A stretch of 64,000 nt of DNA from Podarcis muralis. Its lineage: Eukaryota. The number at the start of each line of letters is the position of its first letter. The first letter of the stretch is position 1. The position numbers are program-made. Positions 17,801 to 44,700 of this stretch are shown one piece after another. The stretch lies in assembly GCF_964188315.1 (NCBI RefSeq), contig NC_135667.1, forward strand, positions 11,594,001-11,658,000, written 5' to 3'.

Positions 17801-20800
17801 AGCCTGTCTCCCCACCCCCTTACTACAGCTGTATATGGAGCACTGAAGAATTTATAATCATGTCAGACTTGCTCGTTGATTTTTTTTCCCACCCTGATGT
17901 TTTGGCCAGGAGAATTGATTATGGTAATTTTAATAATTACAGGGGAGAAAATCACTTGTGCAGTGCTTTTGGAGTCTATGGCGCATCAGCAGTAGGGGAT
18001 GACAATTTGTCACATCGTATTTGTCACATTACAGAATTAAAGATTAGAATTGGACCTGCAAGGTCATCTAGTCCACTCCGTGCCAATCCTTGACATCCAC
18101 AAGTAATAACAATAATAAAACCCACTGATGGGCAGGCATCAATCCACTTCCTAAAAATCCCTTCCTAAGAATATTTTTAGAATTGAACCCATCCAATCCT
18201 TTCCCCGCTTGCCTAATTTGTTACAGCTGGGGGCTGCTACACTCCTCCACCTATGTAAGATGTATTGGACATTGTTTGCTACCACACTAATGGCATACTG
18301 GAAACAATTCTGGAGAGAGTTCTGACATTATCAGGAGGTAGGGACACTGGTTAATAGTGTCTAACCACTTTAGAAACAGCACATCTGATCTGAGGCAATC
18401 TGACATGGTTGAGAAGCTCCCTGCCACCAGTCTTTCACTCAGATAAGAAATGTAATTCAGCAGACTGAAAGGCTTGTCCTACTAATGTAAATCAAGAACA
18501 TTTAATATTGTTCCTCTGTATATTGTTGCACTATGGATACCCTCATCCTTGATAATAATGGTCAATGGTAGGGTGATAGGAGTTCTAGTCCAACAATTTC
18601 TGGAGCGTCTTAGATTGGCTATTCCTGGTGTAAAGGAAGTTGTGGTATGTAGAGAAAGGTCTCATGCTTTGTGTGATCTCTTTCAGAGCTACTTCAGATC
18701 TTAGAGCCTTCTGTGCCTGGAGCACTCCCTAAAGCCAAACCAGTCATTTAATCCATCCTGTGTCTACTCAGGTGTGAGATTCAAGAAGTGTAGAGGTACT
18801 AGTTCACCCTATGTGCAGATGATTTTGCAGCTCTCCAGAATTTTTCCTGTGCCTAGACTGATCTGCTTCAAATGTCTTATTGAAAGTGATGTTGGATCTT
18901 ATCCACAGTTTCATTCCTTCACACAGTCCCAATTCAAATAAAAGACATATGTTCCTATGTGGAATAGCAAGAACATAAATGATAAGATGAATCCTTCTAT
19001 TATTTATATTTTTTCAACTTCCTGACTAGGAAAGGTGCAATGAGACTGTGAATTGTCAGCAAGGCCAAGTAGCCTAAGACCCAACAAAAACTTCTGTCAT
19101 TTATATCTTTCTCCGTATCAATTGCTCTCTGTTGTTTAACTCAGGCCTCATCACAATAATGTAGCATTTAGGGGAAAAGATGCAAGCCAGTAATCCAGCA
19201 CTGGAAGCCAAGATGGAGAAGATCTCCACAGCCACCATGTATTTTCCTCTGGTGCTCAAGTATGTGGGAATAAAGGAGAGCCAAACACTGCAAAAGACCA
19301 GCATGCTGAAGGTGATGAACTTGGCTTCGTTGAAAGTGTCAGGCAACTTCCTGGCTAGGAAGGCCACCGTGAAGCTGACAATGGCCAGGAAACCCATATA
19401 ACCCAAGACACAGTAGAACATGAAGACTGACCCTTCATTACATAGAAATATAATTCCTTCCCTCATTGAGTGCATGTCCACATCGGGGAATGGAGAAGAG
19501 ATTGTCAGCCAGAGTGCACATATCACTACTTGAGTTTTAGAGCAGCAAAGGACTATGGAATAAGCCAGTCTTTTCCCCACCCATTTCCTGATAGAAGATC
19601 CTGGCTTAGTAGCCATGAATGCCAAAACCACTGATATAGTTTTGGCCAAGATGCTAGAGAGGGCCACAGAGAAGATGATGCCAAAAGCGGTTTGTCGGAG
19701 AAGGCAGGTCACCTTATTAGGTTTTCCAATGAACAACAAAGAACAGAGGAAACACAAGAGGAGGGAGATGAGGAGAATGTAGGTGAGGCTTCTGTTGTTG
19801 GCTTTGACTATGGCTGTATCCCGATGCTTAATGAAGATGCCCAGCACCAGAGCTGTGATCAGGGACAATAAAAGTGCAGTGGAAGTTGAAACAATGGCCA
19901 GCACATCATCAAAAGCTAAGAAGTTTGGTATCTTAGGAATACATAGATCCTGGCCTTTGTTTGGGTATAGATCCTTTGCACAACTTGCACAATTTTCTAA
20001 ATCTGAAAAGAAGTTAACAAAATATTGAACCAGAATAGTTCCGAATATTAAAATCTGTAGCAGCAGCAGTCCACCAAACATTATATTTCATCATGCAAAT
20101 TTTGACACCTTTCTGCCCAAGATGCCTACAAATCCTGCACATAGTCTGGAACTTTCAACAGAAGCAGCATGTGTGTCCTAGATGTACAAGCATTCCCTCA
20201 TAACCTGCTTTTAAATACGATAGGTTCTTTATTCCACATATTAACGAGGAATTACAGTTTGCATAATGAGTGCCATCCCACCAAATCATACTCAAAGTAG
20301 TCCCACTGAAATAAATAGACTTAAGTAATTTGAGGTTTTCCACTATGAAGTGGTTTATAAATTTTATGAAATAAATACATAAATTGATTTCAGTGGGTCG
20401 ATTCTGAGTATTACTATTGCCCAATAAGTTTTAATACTAGAAAATCCTGATCCCTTATTTTTTAATCCTGAATAATAACGGCATTTTTACTAGCCCTCTT
20501 GTTAATGCCATAAAATCTTTATGCGATGCTCATAGTGATTCTTATGCAATGACTGGTTTCTGTTTGTAATATTAATCCCTACATGTTGTACTAGTTTGGC
20601 TGATCTGTGCTGCATAAGTTTATTTTTTTATATAGATTCCCAATTTATCTCTACTTAGACTTTCATAACTTCTCATTCTTGTTTCATGGCAGATCACAAG
20701 CTGAAAGGAAGGACACAGCCAGCAACAGGGTCTACCATAACTTTTGTCTGGGTGCTCATCCCTTGTCAATATGTATCGAGTCTTGCCCATGTTTTGCATA

Positions 20801-41700: not shown

Positions 41701-44700
41701 ACTGTGGATAAGATCCAATATCACTTTCATAAGACATTTGTAGCAGATCAGTCTAGGCAATGGAAAAATTCTGGAGAGCTTCAAAATCATCTACACATAG
41801 GGTGAACTAGTACACCCTAATTACATTTCTTATCTGAGTTAAAGACTGGTGACAGGGAGCTTCTTAACCATGTCAGATTGCCTCAGATCAGATGTGTTGT
41901 TTCTAAAGTGATAAGACAATATTATCCAGTGTCCCTACCTCCTAATAACATTAGAACTCTGTCCAGAATTGTTTCCAGTAAGCAGTTAGTATGATAGCAA
42001 ACAATGTCCAATACATCTTATGTAGGTTGAAGGGTGTAACAGCCCCCAGTTCTAGCAAATTAGGCAAGTGGAAAGGATGGGGTGGGTTCAACTCTAAAAA
42101 TACTCTTAGGAATATCTCTTTCTAGCTATTTTTTCATTGTTAGCTCAGTACCTTCCTATCCAGGACCTAGTGTGGGCTGGTTTGATGGCTGGAGAACTTT
42201 GCCCCCCTACTAATATTAATTGAGAACCAAAGCTAGTTTCAGTTTTTGCTGTCATAAATCAATGAGCTAGCAATGGGGAAAAAAAGCTAGAAAGAGATTG
42301 TGCTGATTAGCCACTCCATCCATCACCCTCCTGTCTTGTGTAACCCTCCGTTGGTCCTTCTTTTCACCCACTTCACATAGACTGAGCACAAAATGGTTCT
42401 GAGGCCTGATGCAATATGATGGGTAAGCAGGGATATTCTTTATTACACAGATATGCAGTAATTTTCACAGCTTTGCTTTCAAGATGCAACTTTAAAGGGC
42501 ACAATTTTAATATATCATCTTCCTGGGCTGTCGGTGGAGCTGGGTGGACATAGATCACTGGATATTGTTTTTAAATTATCATACAGCGTATATTTTTCCA
42601 GAAATTTGTATGAGCTGTCCAGAAGATAACCATCCAAACAAGGGCTATGATCACTGTGTTCAAAGATACCAGTTTTCCTAGCTTTTGATGACACTTTGGC
42701 CATCATTTCATTTCCCCCCCCCCTGCATTTCTACAGGCTCTGGTCACAGCTCTGGTGTTGGGCATCTTCTTTAAGCACCGGGACACTGCCATAGTCAAAG
42801 CCAACAACAGAAGCCTCACCTACATTCTCCTCAGCTCCCTTCTGTTGTGTTTCCTCTGCTCTTTGTTGTTCATCAGAATGCCTAATGAGGCAACTTGCCT
42901 TCTCCGACAAACAAGTTCTGACACCATATTCTCTGTAGCCAACAACAACAACAACAACAACAATTTTATTTATATCCCAACCTCCCCAGCCAAAGCCAGG
43001 CTCAGAGTAGCTAACAACAGTAAAAATAGCACAGTTTACATAGAATCACAATCAGTTAATTGAAATATTTTCTAAAATCAATTCAGAATCAAATTAATGG
43101 CAATCATTAGGTTAGTGTTCTATGAGGATTATAGAAGGAGAGAGGGGGTCAGACTGTGCCTTGGCCAAAGGCCTGGTGGAACAGCTATATCTTGCAGGCC
43201 CTGCGGAAAGATGTCAAGTCCCGCAGGGCCCTAGTCCCTTCTGACAGATCAGGGCCACGGCCGAAAAAGTCCTGGCTCTGGTTGAGGCCAGCCTAACTTC
43301 CCTGTGGCCCAGGATCTCCAAGATGTTTTTATTTGAAGACCATAAGGTCCTCCGTGGGACTTACCAGGAGAGGCGGTCCTGTAGGTATGAGGGTCCTAGG
43401 CCATATCGGGCTTTAAGGTTAAAACCAGCACCTTAAACCTGATCCTGTACTCCACCAGGAGCCAGTGCAGCTGGTATAGCACCGGGTGAATGTGATCCTA
43501 TGGCAAGGACCTCGTAAGGAGTCTCGCCGCGGCATTCTGCACCCGCTGGAGTTTCTGGGTCAGTCTCAAGGGCAGCCCCACGTAGAGTGAGTTACAATAA
43601 TCAAGCCTGGAGGTGACTGTTGTGTGGATCACAGTGGCTAGGTCAGGGCGAGAGAGGTAAGGAGCCAACTGCTTAGCTTGGCGGAGATGAAAAAATGCAT
43701 CATGGCCAAAACTATCTCTGTGGTTTTGGCATTCATGGCTACTGTTATGTACTGAAGTTCTCACCCTGGGCCAGCAGGAGGATATTGTAGATAGTTATGC
43801 AAATGAAGGATTGAAAGTGATGTTCAGTGATTGGATAGTTTGTATGCAAATGAAGGTTCGAAAGTGACGTTCAGTGATTAGATAGTTTTAGAAAATGGCA
43901 ACAGTTACATTGTTCTGGAGCTCTATATAAGCATGTTATTAGAGTTTTATTTCCCAGACGTCCTGTGTGTTGACATTGTTTGGATCTTTTCTATCACTGT
44001 TCTAAAGATCCAGAGAAAAACAGGAGTAGTTAATATTACATAGGTCAGATGGTGTGACACTTTCAATGGTTGCCTATTAGACTAGCCAAAAAAAAGAAAA
44101 GAAAAAAGCTTTCTGTTGTTTTGAACTGTTTTAAATTTTCTTTAATATTGTGTTTTAATATTAATGTTGTAGTTACAGATAGGTAGCCGTGTTGGTCTGC
44201 CATAGTCAAAACAAAAAAATTTCCTTCCAGTAGCACCTTAAAGACCAACTAAGTTAGTTCTTGGTATGAGCTTTCGTGTGCATGCACACTTGTATCTGAA
44301 GAAGTGTGCATGCACACGAAAGCTCATACCAAGAACTAACTTAGTTGGTCTTTAAGGTGCTACTGGAAGGAATTTTTTTTGTTTTGAATATTAATGTTGT
44401 GTTTCATTTGTTGTAACCTGCCCTGGGACCTTAGGGTAAGCACAGGTAATAGACAACAACAACAACAATAATCACAACAACAACAACAACAACAACAACA
44501 TTTCATTCTTTAAAAAATAAATATTGAGGTTCTTTCACAGAGTGAGCTTTGTTTGTTCACCAGCAAGATTTTTGCAGAAGAATTTCAAATCAGATAACCA
44601 GCATTCAATAATTTTGCAGCTGTCAATTTCCCACTTTGACAGGGGAGGTTTGAGACCTGTTCCTACTCCATCACAGAAGTGAATGTCTTCCCTGCAATTA

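What the first reader, a model, noticed from the sequence alone, without database searches (positions are those of the whole stretch)
18800..41810. ~10-11 kb head-to-head inverted duplication of a whole V2R gene (C/D)
C and D are mirror images, including introns and upstream DNA, with start codons ~4.4 kb apart (28675 and 33110). This marks the strand switch of the cluster: A-C are minus, D-E are plus. Such a quasi-palindrome can promote arm-to-arm conversion and flip-flop inversion of the spacer, and it places two similar promoters back to back.
Basis: seen in the sequence. Interest (0 to 1): 0.65.

Follow-up and report, generated by a model that had tools for sequence, protein, structure and literature searches.

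The report
Inverted duplicated vomeronasal receptor gene pair
Two neighbouring copies of a vomeronasal-type (V2R) receptor gene lie as mirror images with their starts 4.4 kb apart; this is a real, fairly old inverted duplication whose junction scars suggest how it formed, and it is an ordinary way for such gene families to grow.

Summary
The left arm (18796-29862) and right arm (31955-41813) are reverse complements: 8805 aligned columns, 373 mismatches, 95.8% identity. Weaker homology runs out to 18162/42112. Each arm holds a six-exon class C GPCR gene with ANF_receptor, NCD3G and 7tm_3 domains, closest to CaSR among solved structures.

- **Gene C (minus strand):** intact, 2640 nt of exons, all introns GT-AG.
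- **Gene D (plus strand):** identical in structure except for a 1-nt deletion in exon 3, which gives a frameshift.
- **Not a misjoin:** the arms carry their own transposon insertions, one with a target-site duplication (TSD).
- **Spacer:** the 2092-bp spacer is mostly a later L1 fragment with a TSD and a nested SINE, so the original spacer was about 187 bp.
- **Junction scar:** 65 bp of that spacer copies DNA just outside the right arm and is joined through a GAACT microhomology. I infer fold-back or template-switch repair with D as parent.
- **Divergence:** 10.9% in the outer block, 4.6% in the main arm and 1.9% next to the centre. This fits partial arm-to-arm conversion.

It is a known kind of structure and of modest interest. 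Spacer inversion, synteny and read support could not be tested.

The parts
18796..29862 (.). Left arm of the inverted duplication (high-identity part, 11067 bp). Holds gene C, 1187 bp upstream of it and about 300 bp downstream.
31955..41813 (.). Right arm (9859 bp). Holds gene D and the same flanks.
19101..28675 (-). Gene C, V2R-type class C GPCR. Exons: 28675-28467, 25891-25600, 25200-24319, 23948-23721, 21959-21833, 20002-19101 (209/292/882/228/127/902 nt, sum 2640). All introns GT-AG, no internal stop.
33110..41508 (+). Gene D, mirror copy. Exons: 33110-33318, 36263-36554, 36953-37833 (881 nt), 38204-38431, 39537-39663, 40607-41508. Splice sites intact.
37033..37034 (+). Site of the 1-nt deletion in D exon 3, opposite C position 25119. 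It causes a frameshift with the first stop at codon 50 of the exon. This is the only ORF lesion found in D.
29863..31954 (.). Present spacer between the arms (2092 bp).
29860..31756 (-). 5'-truncated L1-type retrotransposon fragment. It matches ORF2 residues 777-1146 of the long L1 at 57440-60961. Its T/A run lies at the left end, and it is flanked by an exact 11-bp TSD (29849-29859 and 31757-31767).
31259..31621 (-). SINE nested in the L1 fragment, splitting it at ORF2 residue 818. Exact 11-bp TSD at 31248-31258 and 31622-31632. Carries a B-box-like GGTTCGAATCC.
31768..31832 (+). Y: a 65-bp piece of the original spacer. It is a direct copy of 42199-42263. With the 5 preceding bases (GAACT), 68 of 70 positions agree.
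31833..31954 (.). Single-copy remainder of the original spacer (122 bp). No other match in the window.
42199..42263 (+). Source copy of Y, just beyond repeat T1 outside the right arm.
41819..42198 (.). Repeat T1 at the right outer flank. 41819-42112 pairs with L 18457-18162 (32 mismatches in 294, 10.9%). 42113-42198 has no partner on the left.
18162..18457 (.). Left outer copy of T1, cut short at 18162, which I take as the outer breakpoint of the duplication.
18458..18795 (.). 338-bp block present only in the left arm; the right arm has 7 bp in its place. A 39-bp piece of it recurs, in the same order, downstream of gene B (5228-5265). The block is therefore probably ancestral and was deleted in the right arm.
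35740..36100 (-). SINE insertion found only in the right arm (intron 1 of D). Exact 11-bp TSD at 35729-35739 and 36101-36111.
38760..39077 (+). 318-bp insertion found only in the right arm (intron 4 of D). It is 97.5% identical to 56518-56835. The label 'CR1-like 3' end' is from recall.
22705..23650 (.). 946-bp insertion found only in the left arm (intron 4 of C), next to an (AAT)17 microsatellite. Parts of it recur at 51767-52059 and 48988-49112.
20546..21688 (.). Block in intron 5 of C that is not homologous to its right-arm counterpart 39808-40050, except for 62 bp.
39807..39966 (+). Right-arm counterpart in intron 5 of D: a 93% direct copy of the T1 part 42043-42199.
28810..29236 (-). Upstream block of C, about -135 to -561 from the ATG. 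It is conserved upstream of A, B and E at about 63% identity. The mirror copy in D lies at about 32580-32975.

Best explanation
**What it is.** It is a real, fairly old inverted segmental duplication of one complete V2R-type receptor gene unit.

**Shown directly.**
- The two arms are reverse complements at 95.8% identity.
- Each arm holds a six-exon ANF_receptor + NCD3G + 7tm_3 gene.
- C is intact. D differs in structure only by a 1-nt deletion in exon 3.
- Each arm has its own transposon insertions and deletions.
- The 2.09-kb spacer is an L1 fragment with a nested SINE, flanked by an 11-bp TSD. Before that insertion the spacer was about 187 bp.
- 65 bp of that old spacer copy DNA lying just outside the right arm. 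Both copies are preceded by GAACT.

**Inferred: one break-repair or replication event, with D as the parent copy.**
1. B and D once lay head to head, with position 18161 next to about 31833.
2. A free 3' end at that point first copied 65 nt from 42263 back to 42199.
3. It then folded back on the 5-nt GAACT/AGTTC match at 31955.
4. It copied the D unit in reverse as far as 42112.
5. It was joined to the upstream DNA of B.
6. The result was C plus a near-perfect palindrome of about 10.2 kb arms.

**Inferred: later history.**
- The L1 insertion widened the spacer.
- The arms diverged and gained their own insertions and deletions.
- The 1.3 kb next to the centre, which holds both promoters, was made alike again by arm-to-arm conversion.
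- D acquired the frameshift recently, unless it is an assembly error.
For: **Structure and identity.**

**Genes.**
- Pfam: ANF_receptor 1.3e-14 and 7.9e-26, NCD3G 1.7e-12, 7tm_3 3.1e-83.
- CaSR is the best solved relative: 2.6e-77 for exon 6 and 5.3e-23 for exon 3.
- Exon maps and splice sites.
- Five paralogues in the window.

**Real rather than artefact.**
- A SINE with an exact TSD is present in the right arm only.
- A 318-bp insertion is present only on the right and a 946-bp insertion only on the left.
- There are 373 substitutions: 232 transitions and 141 transversions.

**Selection on both copies.**
- Summed per-exon dN/dS is 0.36 (sd 42.8 of S 576.3; nd 56.2 of N 2051.7).
- Nonsynonymous to synonymous counts are alike in both lineages: C 17:13, D 25:20, Fisher p = 1.0.

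**Spacer history.**
- L1 ORF2 residues 777-818 match 31751-31626 and residues 818-1146 match 31254-30274 (E 4e-15 and 1e-95). The match is split exactly by the SINE.
- The reference ORF carries RVT_1 at 3.9e-43.
- All three TSDs are exact. Only 10 of 20000 random pairs of 40-nt windows share an 11-mer.

**Junction scar.** 31763-31832 matches 42194-42263 at 68 of 70 positions. The sequence differs on both sides of the match.

**D as parent.**
- T1 on the right runs 87 bp beyond the point where the left copy stops.
- An independent T1 copy in D's intron 5 crosses that point and ends at the same ...GGAGAACTT.

**Conversion.**
- Divergence is 24 of 1280 (1.87%) next to the centre against 349 of 7525 (4.64%) elsewhere. 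0 of 500 permutations reach this change-point statistic.
- The distal upstream half, which is not conserved among paralogues, is just as low: 12 of 586, Fisher p = 0.0006 against introns.

**Literature.** Fold-back inverted duplications with single-copy spacers, 2-8 bp microhomology or inserted sequence at the junction are described in PMC3907307 (passages read).
Against: - **No recent conversion tract.** The longest identical run is 185 bp, and 226 of 2000 permutations reach that length.
- **The outer T1 block fits a single event poorly.** It is 10.9% diverged (32 of 294, p = 2e-5 against the main arm). A single event with a uniform rate does not predict that.
- **Microhomology was readable at one junction of three.** At the join with B's upstream DNA I see 0 bp (read). 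The third junction cannot be read without the ancestral sequence.
- **The GAACT match is short.** A 5-nt match has a small but real chance of coincidence. Y could also be part of a repeat family too rare to show up in 64 kb.
- **The direction rests on parsimony alone.** D as parent needs no extra event. C as parent needs a later truncation of T1 and a filler of unknown origin.
- **Parent and lesion do not match.** The inferred parent D is the copy that carries the lesion.
- **No asymmetry between the copies.** The relative-rate test is not significant: 30 C-derived against 45 D-derived changes, 24 ambiguous, p = 0.105.
- **Untested.** No reads, no second haplotype and no related species could be examined.
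Confidence: 0.72

Rival explanations
1. Assembly artefact. The two arms are two haplotypes, or a chimeric fold-back read, joined in inverted order, and the genome holds only one copy.
For: Inverted false duplications do occur in long-read assemblies. PMC6218980 on artificial palindromes in long reads was seen only in the search listing. No reads were available to me. The window also holds an N run at 52096-52248, so the assembly is not gapless.
Against: The arms differ by 4.2% over 8805 columns. They also differ by a TSD-flanked SINE, 318-bp and 946-bp insertions, a 338-bp deletion and a replaced block. The junction is not a bare fold-back: it holds 122 bp of single-copy DNA, a 65-bp copied piece and an L1 with its own TSD. 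The outer ends run into different unique DNA: gene B's upstream region on the left, and an exon-6 fragment followed by gene E on the right.
Confidence: 0.03
2. Same kind of event, opposite direction. C is the parent and D is the inverted copy, inserted after Y. The 65-bp Y is then duplicated because synthesis returned to the GAACT at the end of C's upstream DNA.
For: The same GAACT microhomology and Y duplication fit this direction too. C is the intact copy. The 338-bp block downstream of C looks ancestral, since a piece of it recurs downstream of B.
Against: This direction needs T1 on the left to have been full-length and later cut at 18162. It also needs a 122-bp filler of unknown origin at 31833-31954, which has no other match in the window.
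Confidence: 0.2
3. C and D are a much older inverted pair. Their present 95.8% identity comes from one or more large arm-to-arm gene conversions, so the arm edges are conversion limits and not duplication breakpoints.
For: There are three significantly different divergence levels, rising outward: 1.9%, 4.6% and 10.9%. Within the outer T1 block the mismatches are densest at the outer end (alignment). From recall, conversion is weaker near the edges of duplicated blocks.
Against: Homology ends sharply on both sides, at unique DNA, and one end has a microhomology junction. Introns and intergenic DNA align end to end at about 95%, whereas the other paralogues in the window share almost no intron sequence. 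Error-prone synthesis near a repair junction (recalled from the literature on replicative copy-number changes) could also raise divergence at the outer end.
Confidence: 0.15
4. A tandem (direct) duplication of the gene came first, followed by a separate inversion of one copy, rather than a duplication that was inverted from the start.
For: Tandem duplication is named as the main driver of copy number in chemoreceptor families (PMC9018814, passage read). A, B and C, and D and E, lie in tandem.
Against: It needs two events with four breakpoints. It does not explain why the arms meet almost point to point, about 187 bp apart. Nor does it explain why a 65-bp copy of the far flank sits at the centre behind a shared GAACT.
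Confidence: 0.07

Closest known systems
Fold-back inverted duplications with a single-copy spacer (human germline cases, PMC3907307; passages read)
   Same: Two inverted copies are separated by a short single-copy spacer. The disomy-inversion junction carries short microhomology (2-8 bp in 13 of 21 of their junctions) or inserted sequence (5 of 21). Here I find about 187 bp of original spacer, a 5-nt GAACT match and a 65-bp copied insert.
   Different: Their cases are megabase-scale, lie next to terminal deletions, translocations or rings, and pass through a dicentric chromosome. Their spacers are 766-70466 bp. This case is interstitial and about 10 kb long, with no sign of a terminal deletion, and it is fixed in an assembled genome rather than being a patient variant.
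Replicative template switching (FoSTeS/MMBIR; DUP-TRP/INV-DUP structures). The models are named from recall; PMC11293582 was seen only in the search listing, and passages of PMC10766186 were read.
   Same: Several template switches occur within one event. There is microhomology at a junction. A short templated piece is copied from a nearby place. One segment is inverted.
   Different: There are only two copies here and no triplicated segment in the window. I found no pre-existing long inverted repeats that could have mediated the switch.
[quoted passage not shown]
   Same: A switch at inverted repeats of about 5 nt gives a palindromic junction with a short interruption. That paper also says such palindromes are unstable and that later rearrangements lengthen the spacer. 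Here an L1 insertion lengthened it about elevenfold.
   Different: ODIRA predicts an inverted triplication with two palindromic junctions and an origin inside the segment. Here there are two copies and one palindromic junction, and no origin can be assessed.
Large sex-chromosome palindromes kept alike by arm-to-arm gene conversion. Named from recall; PMC6790999 was seen only in the search listing.
   Same: Gene-bearing inverted arms surround a spacer. There are signs of arm-to-arm homogenisation near the centre.
   Different: From recall, those arms are more than 99.9% identical and tens to thousands of kb long. Here identity is 95.8% and no identical run exceeds chance.
Growth of V2R clusters by local duplication in squamates and other vertebrates (PMC3590772 and PMC9018814; passages read)
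   Same: This is a lineage-specific local expansion of V2R genes, with pseudogenes among them.
   Different: The passages I read speak of tandem duplication and expansion. In those passages I found no description of an inverted gene pair with reconstructed junctions. My searches for one listed none, but most subscription journals are not in the library.

Membership tests
V2R (vomeronasal type-2 receptor; class C GPCR, sister group of CaSR) | Venus-flytrap ligand-binding domain (ANF_receptor) | tested here: met
   C exon 2 scores 1.3e-14 and exon 3 scores 7.9e-26. D exon 3 (the part after the deletion) scores 1.8e-15.
V2R (vomeronasal type-2 receptor; class C GPCR, sister group of CaSR) | Cysteine-rich linker (NCD3G) followed by a class C seven-helix domain (7tm_3) | tested here: met
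   NCD3G scores 1.7e-12 in exon 5. 7tm_3 scores 3.1e-83 and covers the whole profile (1-251 of 251) in exon 6.
V2R (vomeronasal type-2 receptor; class C GPCR, sister group of CaSR) | Falls in the clade that is sister to CaSR in a class C tree (the criterion used in PMC9018814; passage read) | tested here: inconclusive
   CaSR is the best solved relative by a wide margin: 2.6e-77 against 2.7e-46 for mGluR2 with exon 6, and 5.3e-23 with exon 3. No V2R chain was among the 60 rows shown per search.
V2R (vomeronasal type-2 receptor; class C GPCR, sister group of CaSR) | Member of a local multi-copy cluster (from recall, CaSR, GPRC6A and the T1Rs are single genes) | tested here: met
   There are five paralogous gene units and two exon-6 fragments in 64 kb.
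V2R (vomeronasal type-2 receptor; class C GPCR, sister group of CaSR) | Expression in vomeronasal sensory neurons | not testable with these tools
   No expression data were available.
Fold-back inverted duplication | Inverted copies separated by a short single-copy spacer that is continuous with the parent copy | tested here: met
   After removing the TSD-flanked L1, the spacer is 31768-31954. Of this, 31833-31954 is single-copy and runs directly into the right arm.
Fold-back inverted duplication | Short inverted microhomology, or inserted sequence, at the spacer/inverted-copy junction | tested here: met
   A 65-bp insert is copied from 42199-42263. GAACT is shared by the end of the left arm and by the bases before the source. 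Its complement AGTTC begins the right arm at 31955.
Fold-back inverted duplication | Dicentric intermediate with an adjacent terminal deletion, translocation or ring | tested here: not met
   The duplication is interstitial, with unique DNA and further genes of the cluster on both sides. So I say it works like a fold-back event. I do not say it is a member of the terminal inv-dup-del class.
Palindrome maintained by arm-to-arm gene conversion | Near-identity of the arms (more than 99.9%, from recall) | tested here: not met
   Identity is 95.76% overall. The best region is 98.1%.
Palindrome maintained by arm-to-arm gene conversion | Patchy or graded divergence that neutral decay alone does not give | tested here: met
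   Divergence is 1.87%, 4.64% and 10.9% in the inner, main and outer parts. 0 of 500 permutations reach the change-point statistic, and Fisher p = 2e-5 for the outer part against the main arm. The longest-run test was negative: 226 of 2000 permutations reach the observed run.
ODIRA inverted triplication | Three copies with two palindromic junctions | tested here: not met
   Only two copies of the unit are in the window. The next-best matches are the older paralogues at 74-87%.

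The most novel reading that the evidence does not exclude
The pair is more than a fossil of one repair event. It would be an autosomal chemoreceptor palindrome in which conversion works outward from the centre. That would keep the two back-to-back promoters nearly identical (1.9% diverged) while the ligand-binding exons drift (exon 2 at 5.1%, exon 3 at 4.9%). The two receptors would then share one regulatory identity in receptor choice. Crossovers within the arms could also swap 5' parts between the copies, for instance carrying the exon-3 lesion from one gene to the other or removing it.
Probability: 0.08. Interest if true: 0.6.

Novelty: new member of a known kind. Interest (0 to 1): 0.3.

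Why it matters
V2R clusters grow and shrink quickly, and how single genes are added is rarely seen at base resolution. Here the scars are still readable:
- an original spacer of about 187 bp;
- a 65-bp templated piece;
- a 5-nt microhomology;
- a truncated flank repeat that suggests which copy is the parent.

This gives a natural germline example, fixed in a genome, of the fold-back or template-switch events known mainly from patients, tumours and yeast. It also shows a near-perfect 10-kb palindrome that survived. Its centre was later widened by a retrotransposon, which fits the view that short-spacer palindromes are unstable until the spacer grows (PMC10766186, passage read).

For annotation, C should be called intact. 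D should be called a candidate recent pseudogene until reads confirm the 1-nt deletion. Beyond that the finding is ordinary: inverted paralogue pairs are a normal product of gene-family turnover.

Tried and rejected
- **tRNA origin of the SINE.** Rfam at gathering threshold on the whole window gave 0 matches. Rfam at E up to 1 on 31200-31700 gave 0. ARAGORN gave 0 genes. The SINE label therefore rests on the TSDs, four dispersed copies and a B-box-like motif (4 matches against 0.48 expected). The name 'Sauria-type SINE' is only a recollection and I do not claim it.
- **L1 pieces against libraries.** Pfam found nothing in 3 of 3 spacer ORF pieces. The PDB search gave human L1 ORF2p as top hit, but only at E = 0.13. 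The protein atlas gave zf-RVT-bearing clusters at a score of 0.92, with low recognition. I did not rely on these. Comparison with the long L1 in the same window settled the question.
- **Hidden inverted homology inside the spacer.** The best local score was 21, against a shuffled mean of 22.5 and maximum of 27. There is none.
- **Recent conversion tracts by the longest identical run.** Negative.
- **Faster or more relaxed evolution of D.** Not significant.
- **Other copies of the 122-bp spacer remainder or of Y.** None beyond those reported.
  - One search stopped at an assertion, and I redid the exon mapping by coordinates.
  - One search was an out-of-frame reference, corrected.
  - One search printed a false negative for two TSDs because my coordinates were 2-3 bases off; this was corrected.
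  - One search used unsuitable alignment settings and its output is ignored; one search replaces it.
- **Left out.**
  - I made no joined (spliced) coding sequence or protein. All searches and codon counts were done exon by exon and only the numbers were added up, so codons split across exons were skipped.
  - No structure or complex prediction was run, because nothing here depends on one.
  - Any comparison with other vertebrate genomes (the sequence collections on offer hold bacteria, archaea, phages, plasmids and E. coli).
  - The two large protein searches and the metagenome and viral collections, which were closed.
  - Supplementary files of papers, which were closed. The squamate V2R sequences in the supplements of PMC3590772 might have allowed a family tree.

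Full report
**Scope and limits.** I do not take this window for human. It holds a cluster of apparently functional V2R-type genes together with L1, SINE and (from recall) CR1-like repeats. I judge it to be from a squamate reptile, but that is an inference and I did not try to identify the source.
- The only N run is 52096-52248, inside an intron of gene E. I left it alone.
Every search and codon count was done exon by exon and only the numbers were added, so codons split between exons were skipped.
- No vertebrate genome collection was on hand.
- The two large protein searches, the metagenome and viral collections and paper supplements were closed.
- Synteny, orthologues and a proper family tree therefore stayed unchecked.

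**1. The observation.**
- The repeat finder reports 22 inverted pairs in 15000-45000, up to 1416 nt at 97%.
- Self-blastn gives a colinear inverted chain from 18796/41813 in to 29862/31955. It also gives an outer piece, 18162-18457 against 42112-41819, at 88.5%.
[quoted passage not shown] I had dropped three blocks that blastn shows are not homologous: L 20546-21688, 22708-23682 and 26044-26084. Transitions number 232 and transversions 141.
- The arms are 11067 and 9859 bp, the spacer is 2092 bp and the two ATGs are 4435 bp apart.

**2. What the arms hold.**
- Stop-to-stop ORFs and Pfam show ANF_receptor in exon 2 (1.3e-14) and exon 3 (7.9e-26), NCD3G in exon 5 (1.7e-12) and a full-length 7tm_3 in exon 6 (3.1e-83).
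- Among solved structures the calcium-sensing receptor is the nearest by far: 2.6e-77 for exon 6, with the next family, mGluR2, at 2.7e-46, and 5.3e-23 for exon 3.
- With five paralogous units in 64 kb, this fits V2R. PMC9018814 defines V2R as the clade sister to CaSR (passage read). I could not build the tree that would prove membership.
- I set exon borders from a four- or five-paralogue alignment and by reading the junctions.
- **Gene C (minus strand)** has exons of 209, 292, 882, 228, 127 and 902 nt, sum 2640. All five introns are GT-AG and there is no internal stop.
- **Gene D (plus strand)** has the same borders and lengths, except that exon 3 is 881 nt. One base is missing opposite C 25119, at a CC that has become a single C near 37034. 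The native frame then runs into a stop at codon 50 of the exon. All other D exons are open in frame.
- D is therefore a pseudogene as assembled, or the victim of a single-base assembly error. Reads are needed to decide.

**3. Selection.**
- Nei-Gojobori counts were summed over the six exons. Synonymous differences are 42.8 on 576.3 sites and nonsynonymous differences are 56.2 on 2051.7 sites. That gives dS 0.078, dN 0.028 and dN/dS 0.36.
- I polarised changes with B and E as outgroups. 30 changes fall on C, 45 on D and 24 are ambiguous (binomial p = 0.105).
- Nonsynonymous to synonymous counts are 17:13 on C and 25:20 on D (Fisher p = 1.0).
- Both copies were thus under similar constraint for most of their separate history. 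If the lesion in D is real, it is recent.

**4. Not an artefact.** The arms differ by events that take evolutionary time.
- A roughly 360-bp SINE is present only in D's intron 1 (35740-36100), with an exact 11-bp target-site duplication.
- A 318-bp insertion is present only in D's intron 4. It is 97.5% identical to 56518-56835.
- A 946-bp insertion is present only in C's intron 4.
- A 338-bp block is present only on the left (18458-18795). A piece of it recurs, in the same order, downstream of B, so it was probably deleted on the right.
- A block in intron 5 has been replaced.
- Allelic haplotypes joined by mistake would not be expected to differ this much, and the centre is not a bare fold-back.

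**5. The spacer and the original centre.**
- tblastn with the long L1 ORF2 of this window (57440-60961, 1173 residues, RVT_1 3.9e-43) matches the spacer on the minus strand. Residues 777-818 match 31751-31626 (69%, 4e-15) and residues 818-1146 match 31254-30274 (48%, 1e-95).
- The break at residue 818 is exactly where a SINE sits (31259-31621). That SINE is flanked by an exact 11-bp duplication.
- The L1 fragment ends on the left in a T/A run right after the left arm. It is flanked by an exact 11-bp duplication at 29849-29859 and 31757-31767. Only 10 of 20000 random pairs of 40-nt windows share any 11-mer.
- With this insertion removed, the two arms were separated by only 31768-31954, about 187 bp. 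The structure therefore began as a palindrome of about 10-kb arms with a very short spacer.

**6. The junction scar.**
- The first 65 bp of that old spacer (31768-31832) are a direct copy of 42199-42263, which lies just outside the right arm.
- With the five preceding bases the match is 68 of 70, and the sequence differs on both sides of it.
- At the centre, those five bases (GAACT) are the last bases of the left arm.
- At the outer site, they are the last bases of a repeat I call T1 (41819-42198).
- The right arm begins with their complement at 31955.
- T1 on the right continues 87 bp beyond the point (42112) where the left copy stops (18162). A separate T1 copy in D's intron 5 (39807-39966, 93%) crosses that point and ends at the same place.

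**7. Most likely mechanism (inferred).** The version needing the fewest events runs as follows.
1. B and D once lay head to head, with 18161 next to about 31833.
2. A 3' end at a break or stalled fork there copied 65 nt from 42263 back to 42199.
3. It came off its template and folded back on the GAACT/AGTTC match 122 bp inside its own strand.
4. It copied the D unit in reverse for about 10.2 kb, to 42112.
5. It was joined to B's upstream DNA, where I see no microhomology (read).

This makes D the parent and C the new copy. The opposite direction is possible. It needs a later truncation of the left T1 and a 122-bp filler of unknown origin, which has no other match in the window.

The pattern resembles the fold-back inverted duplications of PMC3907307 (passages read): a single-copy spacer, with 2-8 bp of microhomology in 13 of 21 junctions or inserted sequence in 5 of 21. 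It also resembles multi-switch replicative models (named from recall; PMC11293582 seen in the listing only). It differs from the patient cases in being interstitial and small. It differs from ODIRA in having two copies, not three (passages of PMC10766186 read). That paper also states that short-spacer palindromes are unstable and tend to gain longer spacers. Here an L1 lengthened the spacer about elevenfold.

**8. Conversion between the arms.**
- The longest identical run is 185 bp, and 226 of 2000 permutations do as well. There is thus no recent tract.
- Divergence is nonetheless far from even. By class it is 5.04% in introns (237 of 4707), 3.75% in exons (99 of 2639) and 1.99% upstream (23 of 1155).
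- A change-point scan from the centre puts the break at L 28550, inside exon 1. Divergence is 24 of 1280 (1.87%) inside it and 349 of 7525 (4.64%) outside. 0 of 500 permutations reach this statistic.
- A block from about -560 to -125 is conserved upstream of all five genes at about 63% and is probably the family promoter. The distal half, -600 to -1187, has no such conservation and is equally low: 12 of 586, p = 0.0006 against introns. Constraint alone is therefore a poor explanation, and a past conversion next to the centre fits better.
- Intron 3 plus exon 4 is also low: 9 of 598.
- At the other extreme, the outer T1 block is 10.9% diverged (32 of 294, p = 2e-5 against the main arm), with most mismatches at the outer end.
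- Three readings remain open:
  - conversion that weakens toward the arm edges;
  - error-prone synthesis near the outer junction (recalled from work on replicative copy-number changes);
  - an older pair later homogenised.

**9. Comparison with what is known, and verdict.**
- Growth of V2R repertoires by local duplication, with pseudogenes, is established for squamates and other vertebrates (PMC3590772 and PMC9018814, passages read).
- My searches for an inverted or palindromic V2R pair listed none. The library lacks most subscription journals, and such pairs are an expected by-product of cluster turnover.
- I rate this a new member of a known kind.
- Flip-flop inversion of the spacer, promoter activity and the reality of D's frameshift remain untested.

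Noticed in passing
window 51231-51358 and 52096-52248: Exon 5 of gene E (plus strand, about 45139-53669) is 28 nt shorter than in B, C and D, and there is no GT donor at the aligned place. Exons 1-4 are open with GT-AG. E may be a pseudogene or may use other splice sites. The window's only N run lies in E's intron 5.
   Followed up: partly
window 42309-43063: A lone fragment of a V2R exon 6 (plus strand, covering roughly the first helices) lies between D and E. It is 78% identical to E's exon 6 region and is interrupted by an AAT-type run.
   Followed up: no
window 46521-46724: An inverted fragment holding the 5' part of exon 6 and the intron DNA before it sits inside intron 1 of E. It is about 82% identical to C 19966-20171.
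   Followed up: no
window 3387-3815, 17578-17955, 28810-29236, about 32580-32975, 44674-45075: A block about -560 to -125 from the ATG is conserved upstream of all five V2R genes at about 63% identity. It has a strongly conserved core of roughly 50 bp. It is a candidate shared promoter element of this subfamily.
   Followed up: partly
window 57440-60961 and 62195-63782: An open 1173-residue L1-type ORF2 (RVT_1 3.9e-43) lies on the minus strand. Next to it on the plus strand are a second element's 316-residue ORF and an endonuclease-domain ORF (Exo_endo_phos 7.5e-15). These look like young LINE copies, and they explain the strong strand skews at 58-60 and 62-64 kb.
   Followed up: partly
window 31259-31621, 35740-36100, 45780-46126, 53718-54076: Four copies of a roughly 360-bp SINE are 89-95% alike. 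Each has a GGTTCGAATCC box (4 matches against 0.48 expected) and a tail of a 6-nt repeat. Rfam and ARAGORN see no tRNA in it.
   Followed up: partly
window 39807-39966 versus 20879-21688: At the same point of intron 5, D holds a 93% direct copy of the T1 repeat that lies 2.2 kb downstream of it, while C holds 810 unrelated bp. A second, inverted T1 piece is in E's intron 5 (52381-52443). Why the two arms differ exactly here is unexplained.
   Followed up: partly
window 3335-3360, 17538-17550, 45100-45140: A, B and E have a further in-frame ATG a few codons upstream of the ATG that aligns with the start of C and D. C and D lack it.
   Followed up: no
window 23655-23705 and 38440-38470: An (AAT)n microsatellite directly follows the donor site of exon 4 in both C and D (17 units in C). 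In C it borders the 946-bp insertion.
   Followed up: no
window 56070-56835: A 231-residue ORF has no Pfam match. From recall, its C-terminal part looks like the end of a CR1-type LINE ORF2. Its last 318 bp are 97.5% identical to the insertion in D's intron 4, so this family was active after the duplication.
   Followed up: no
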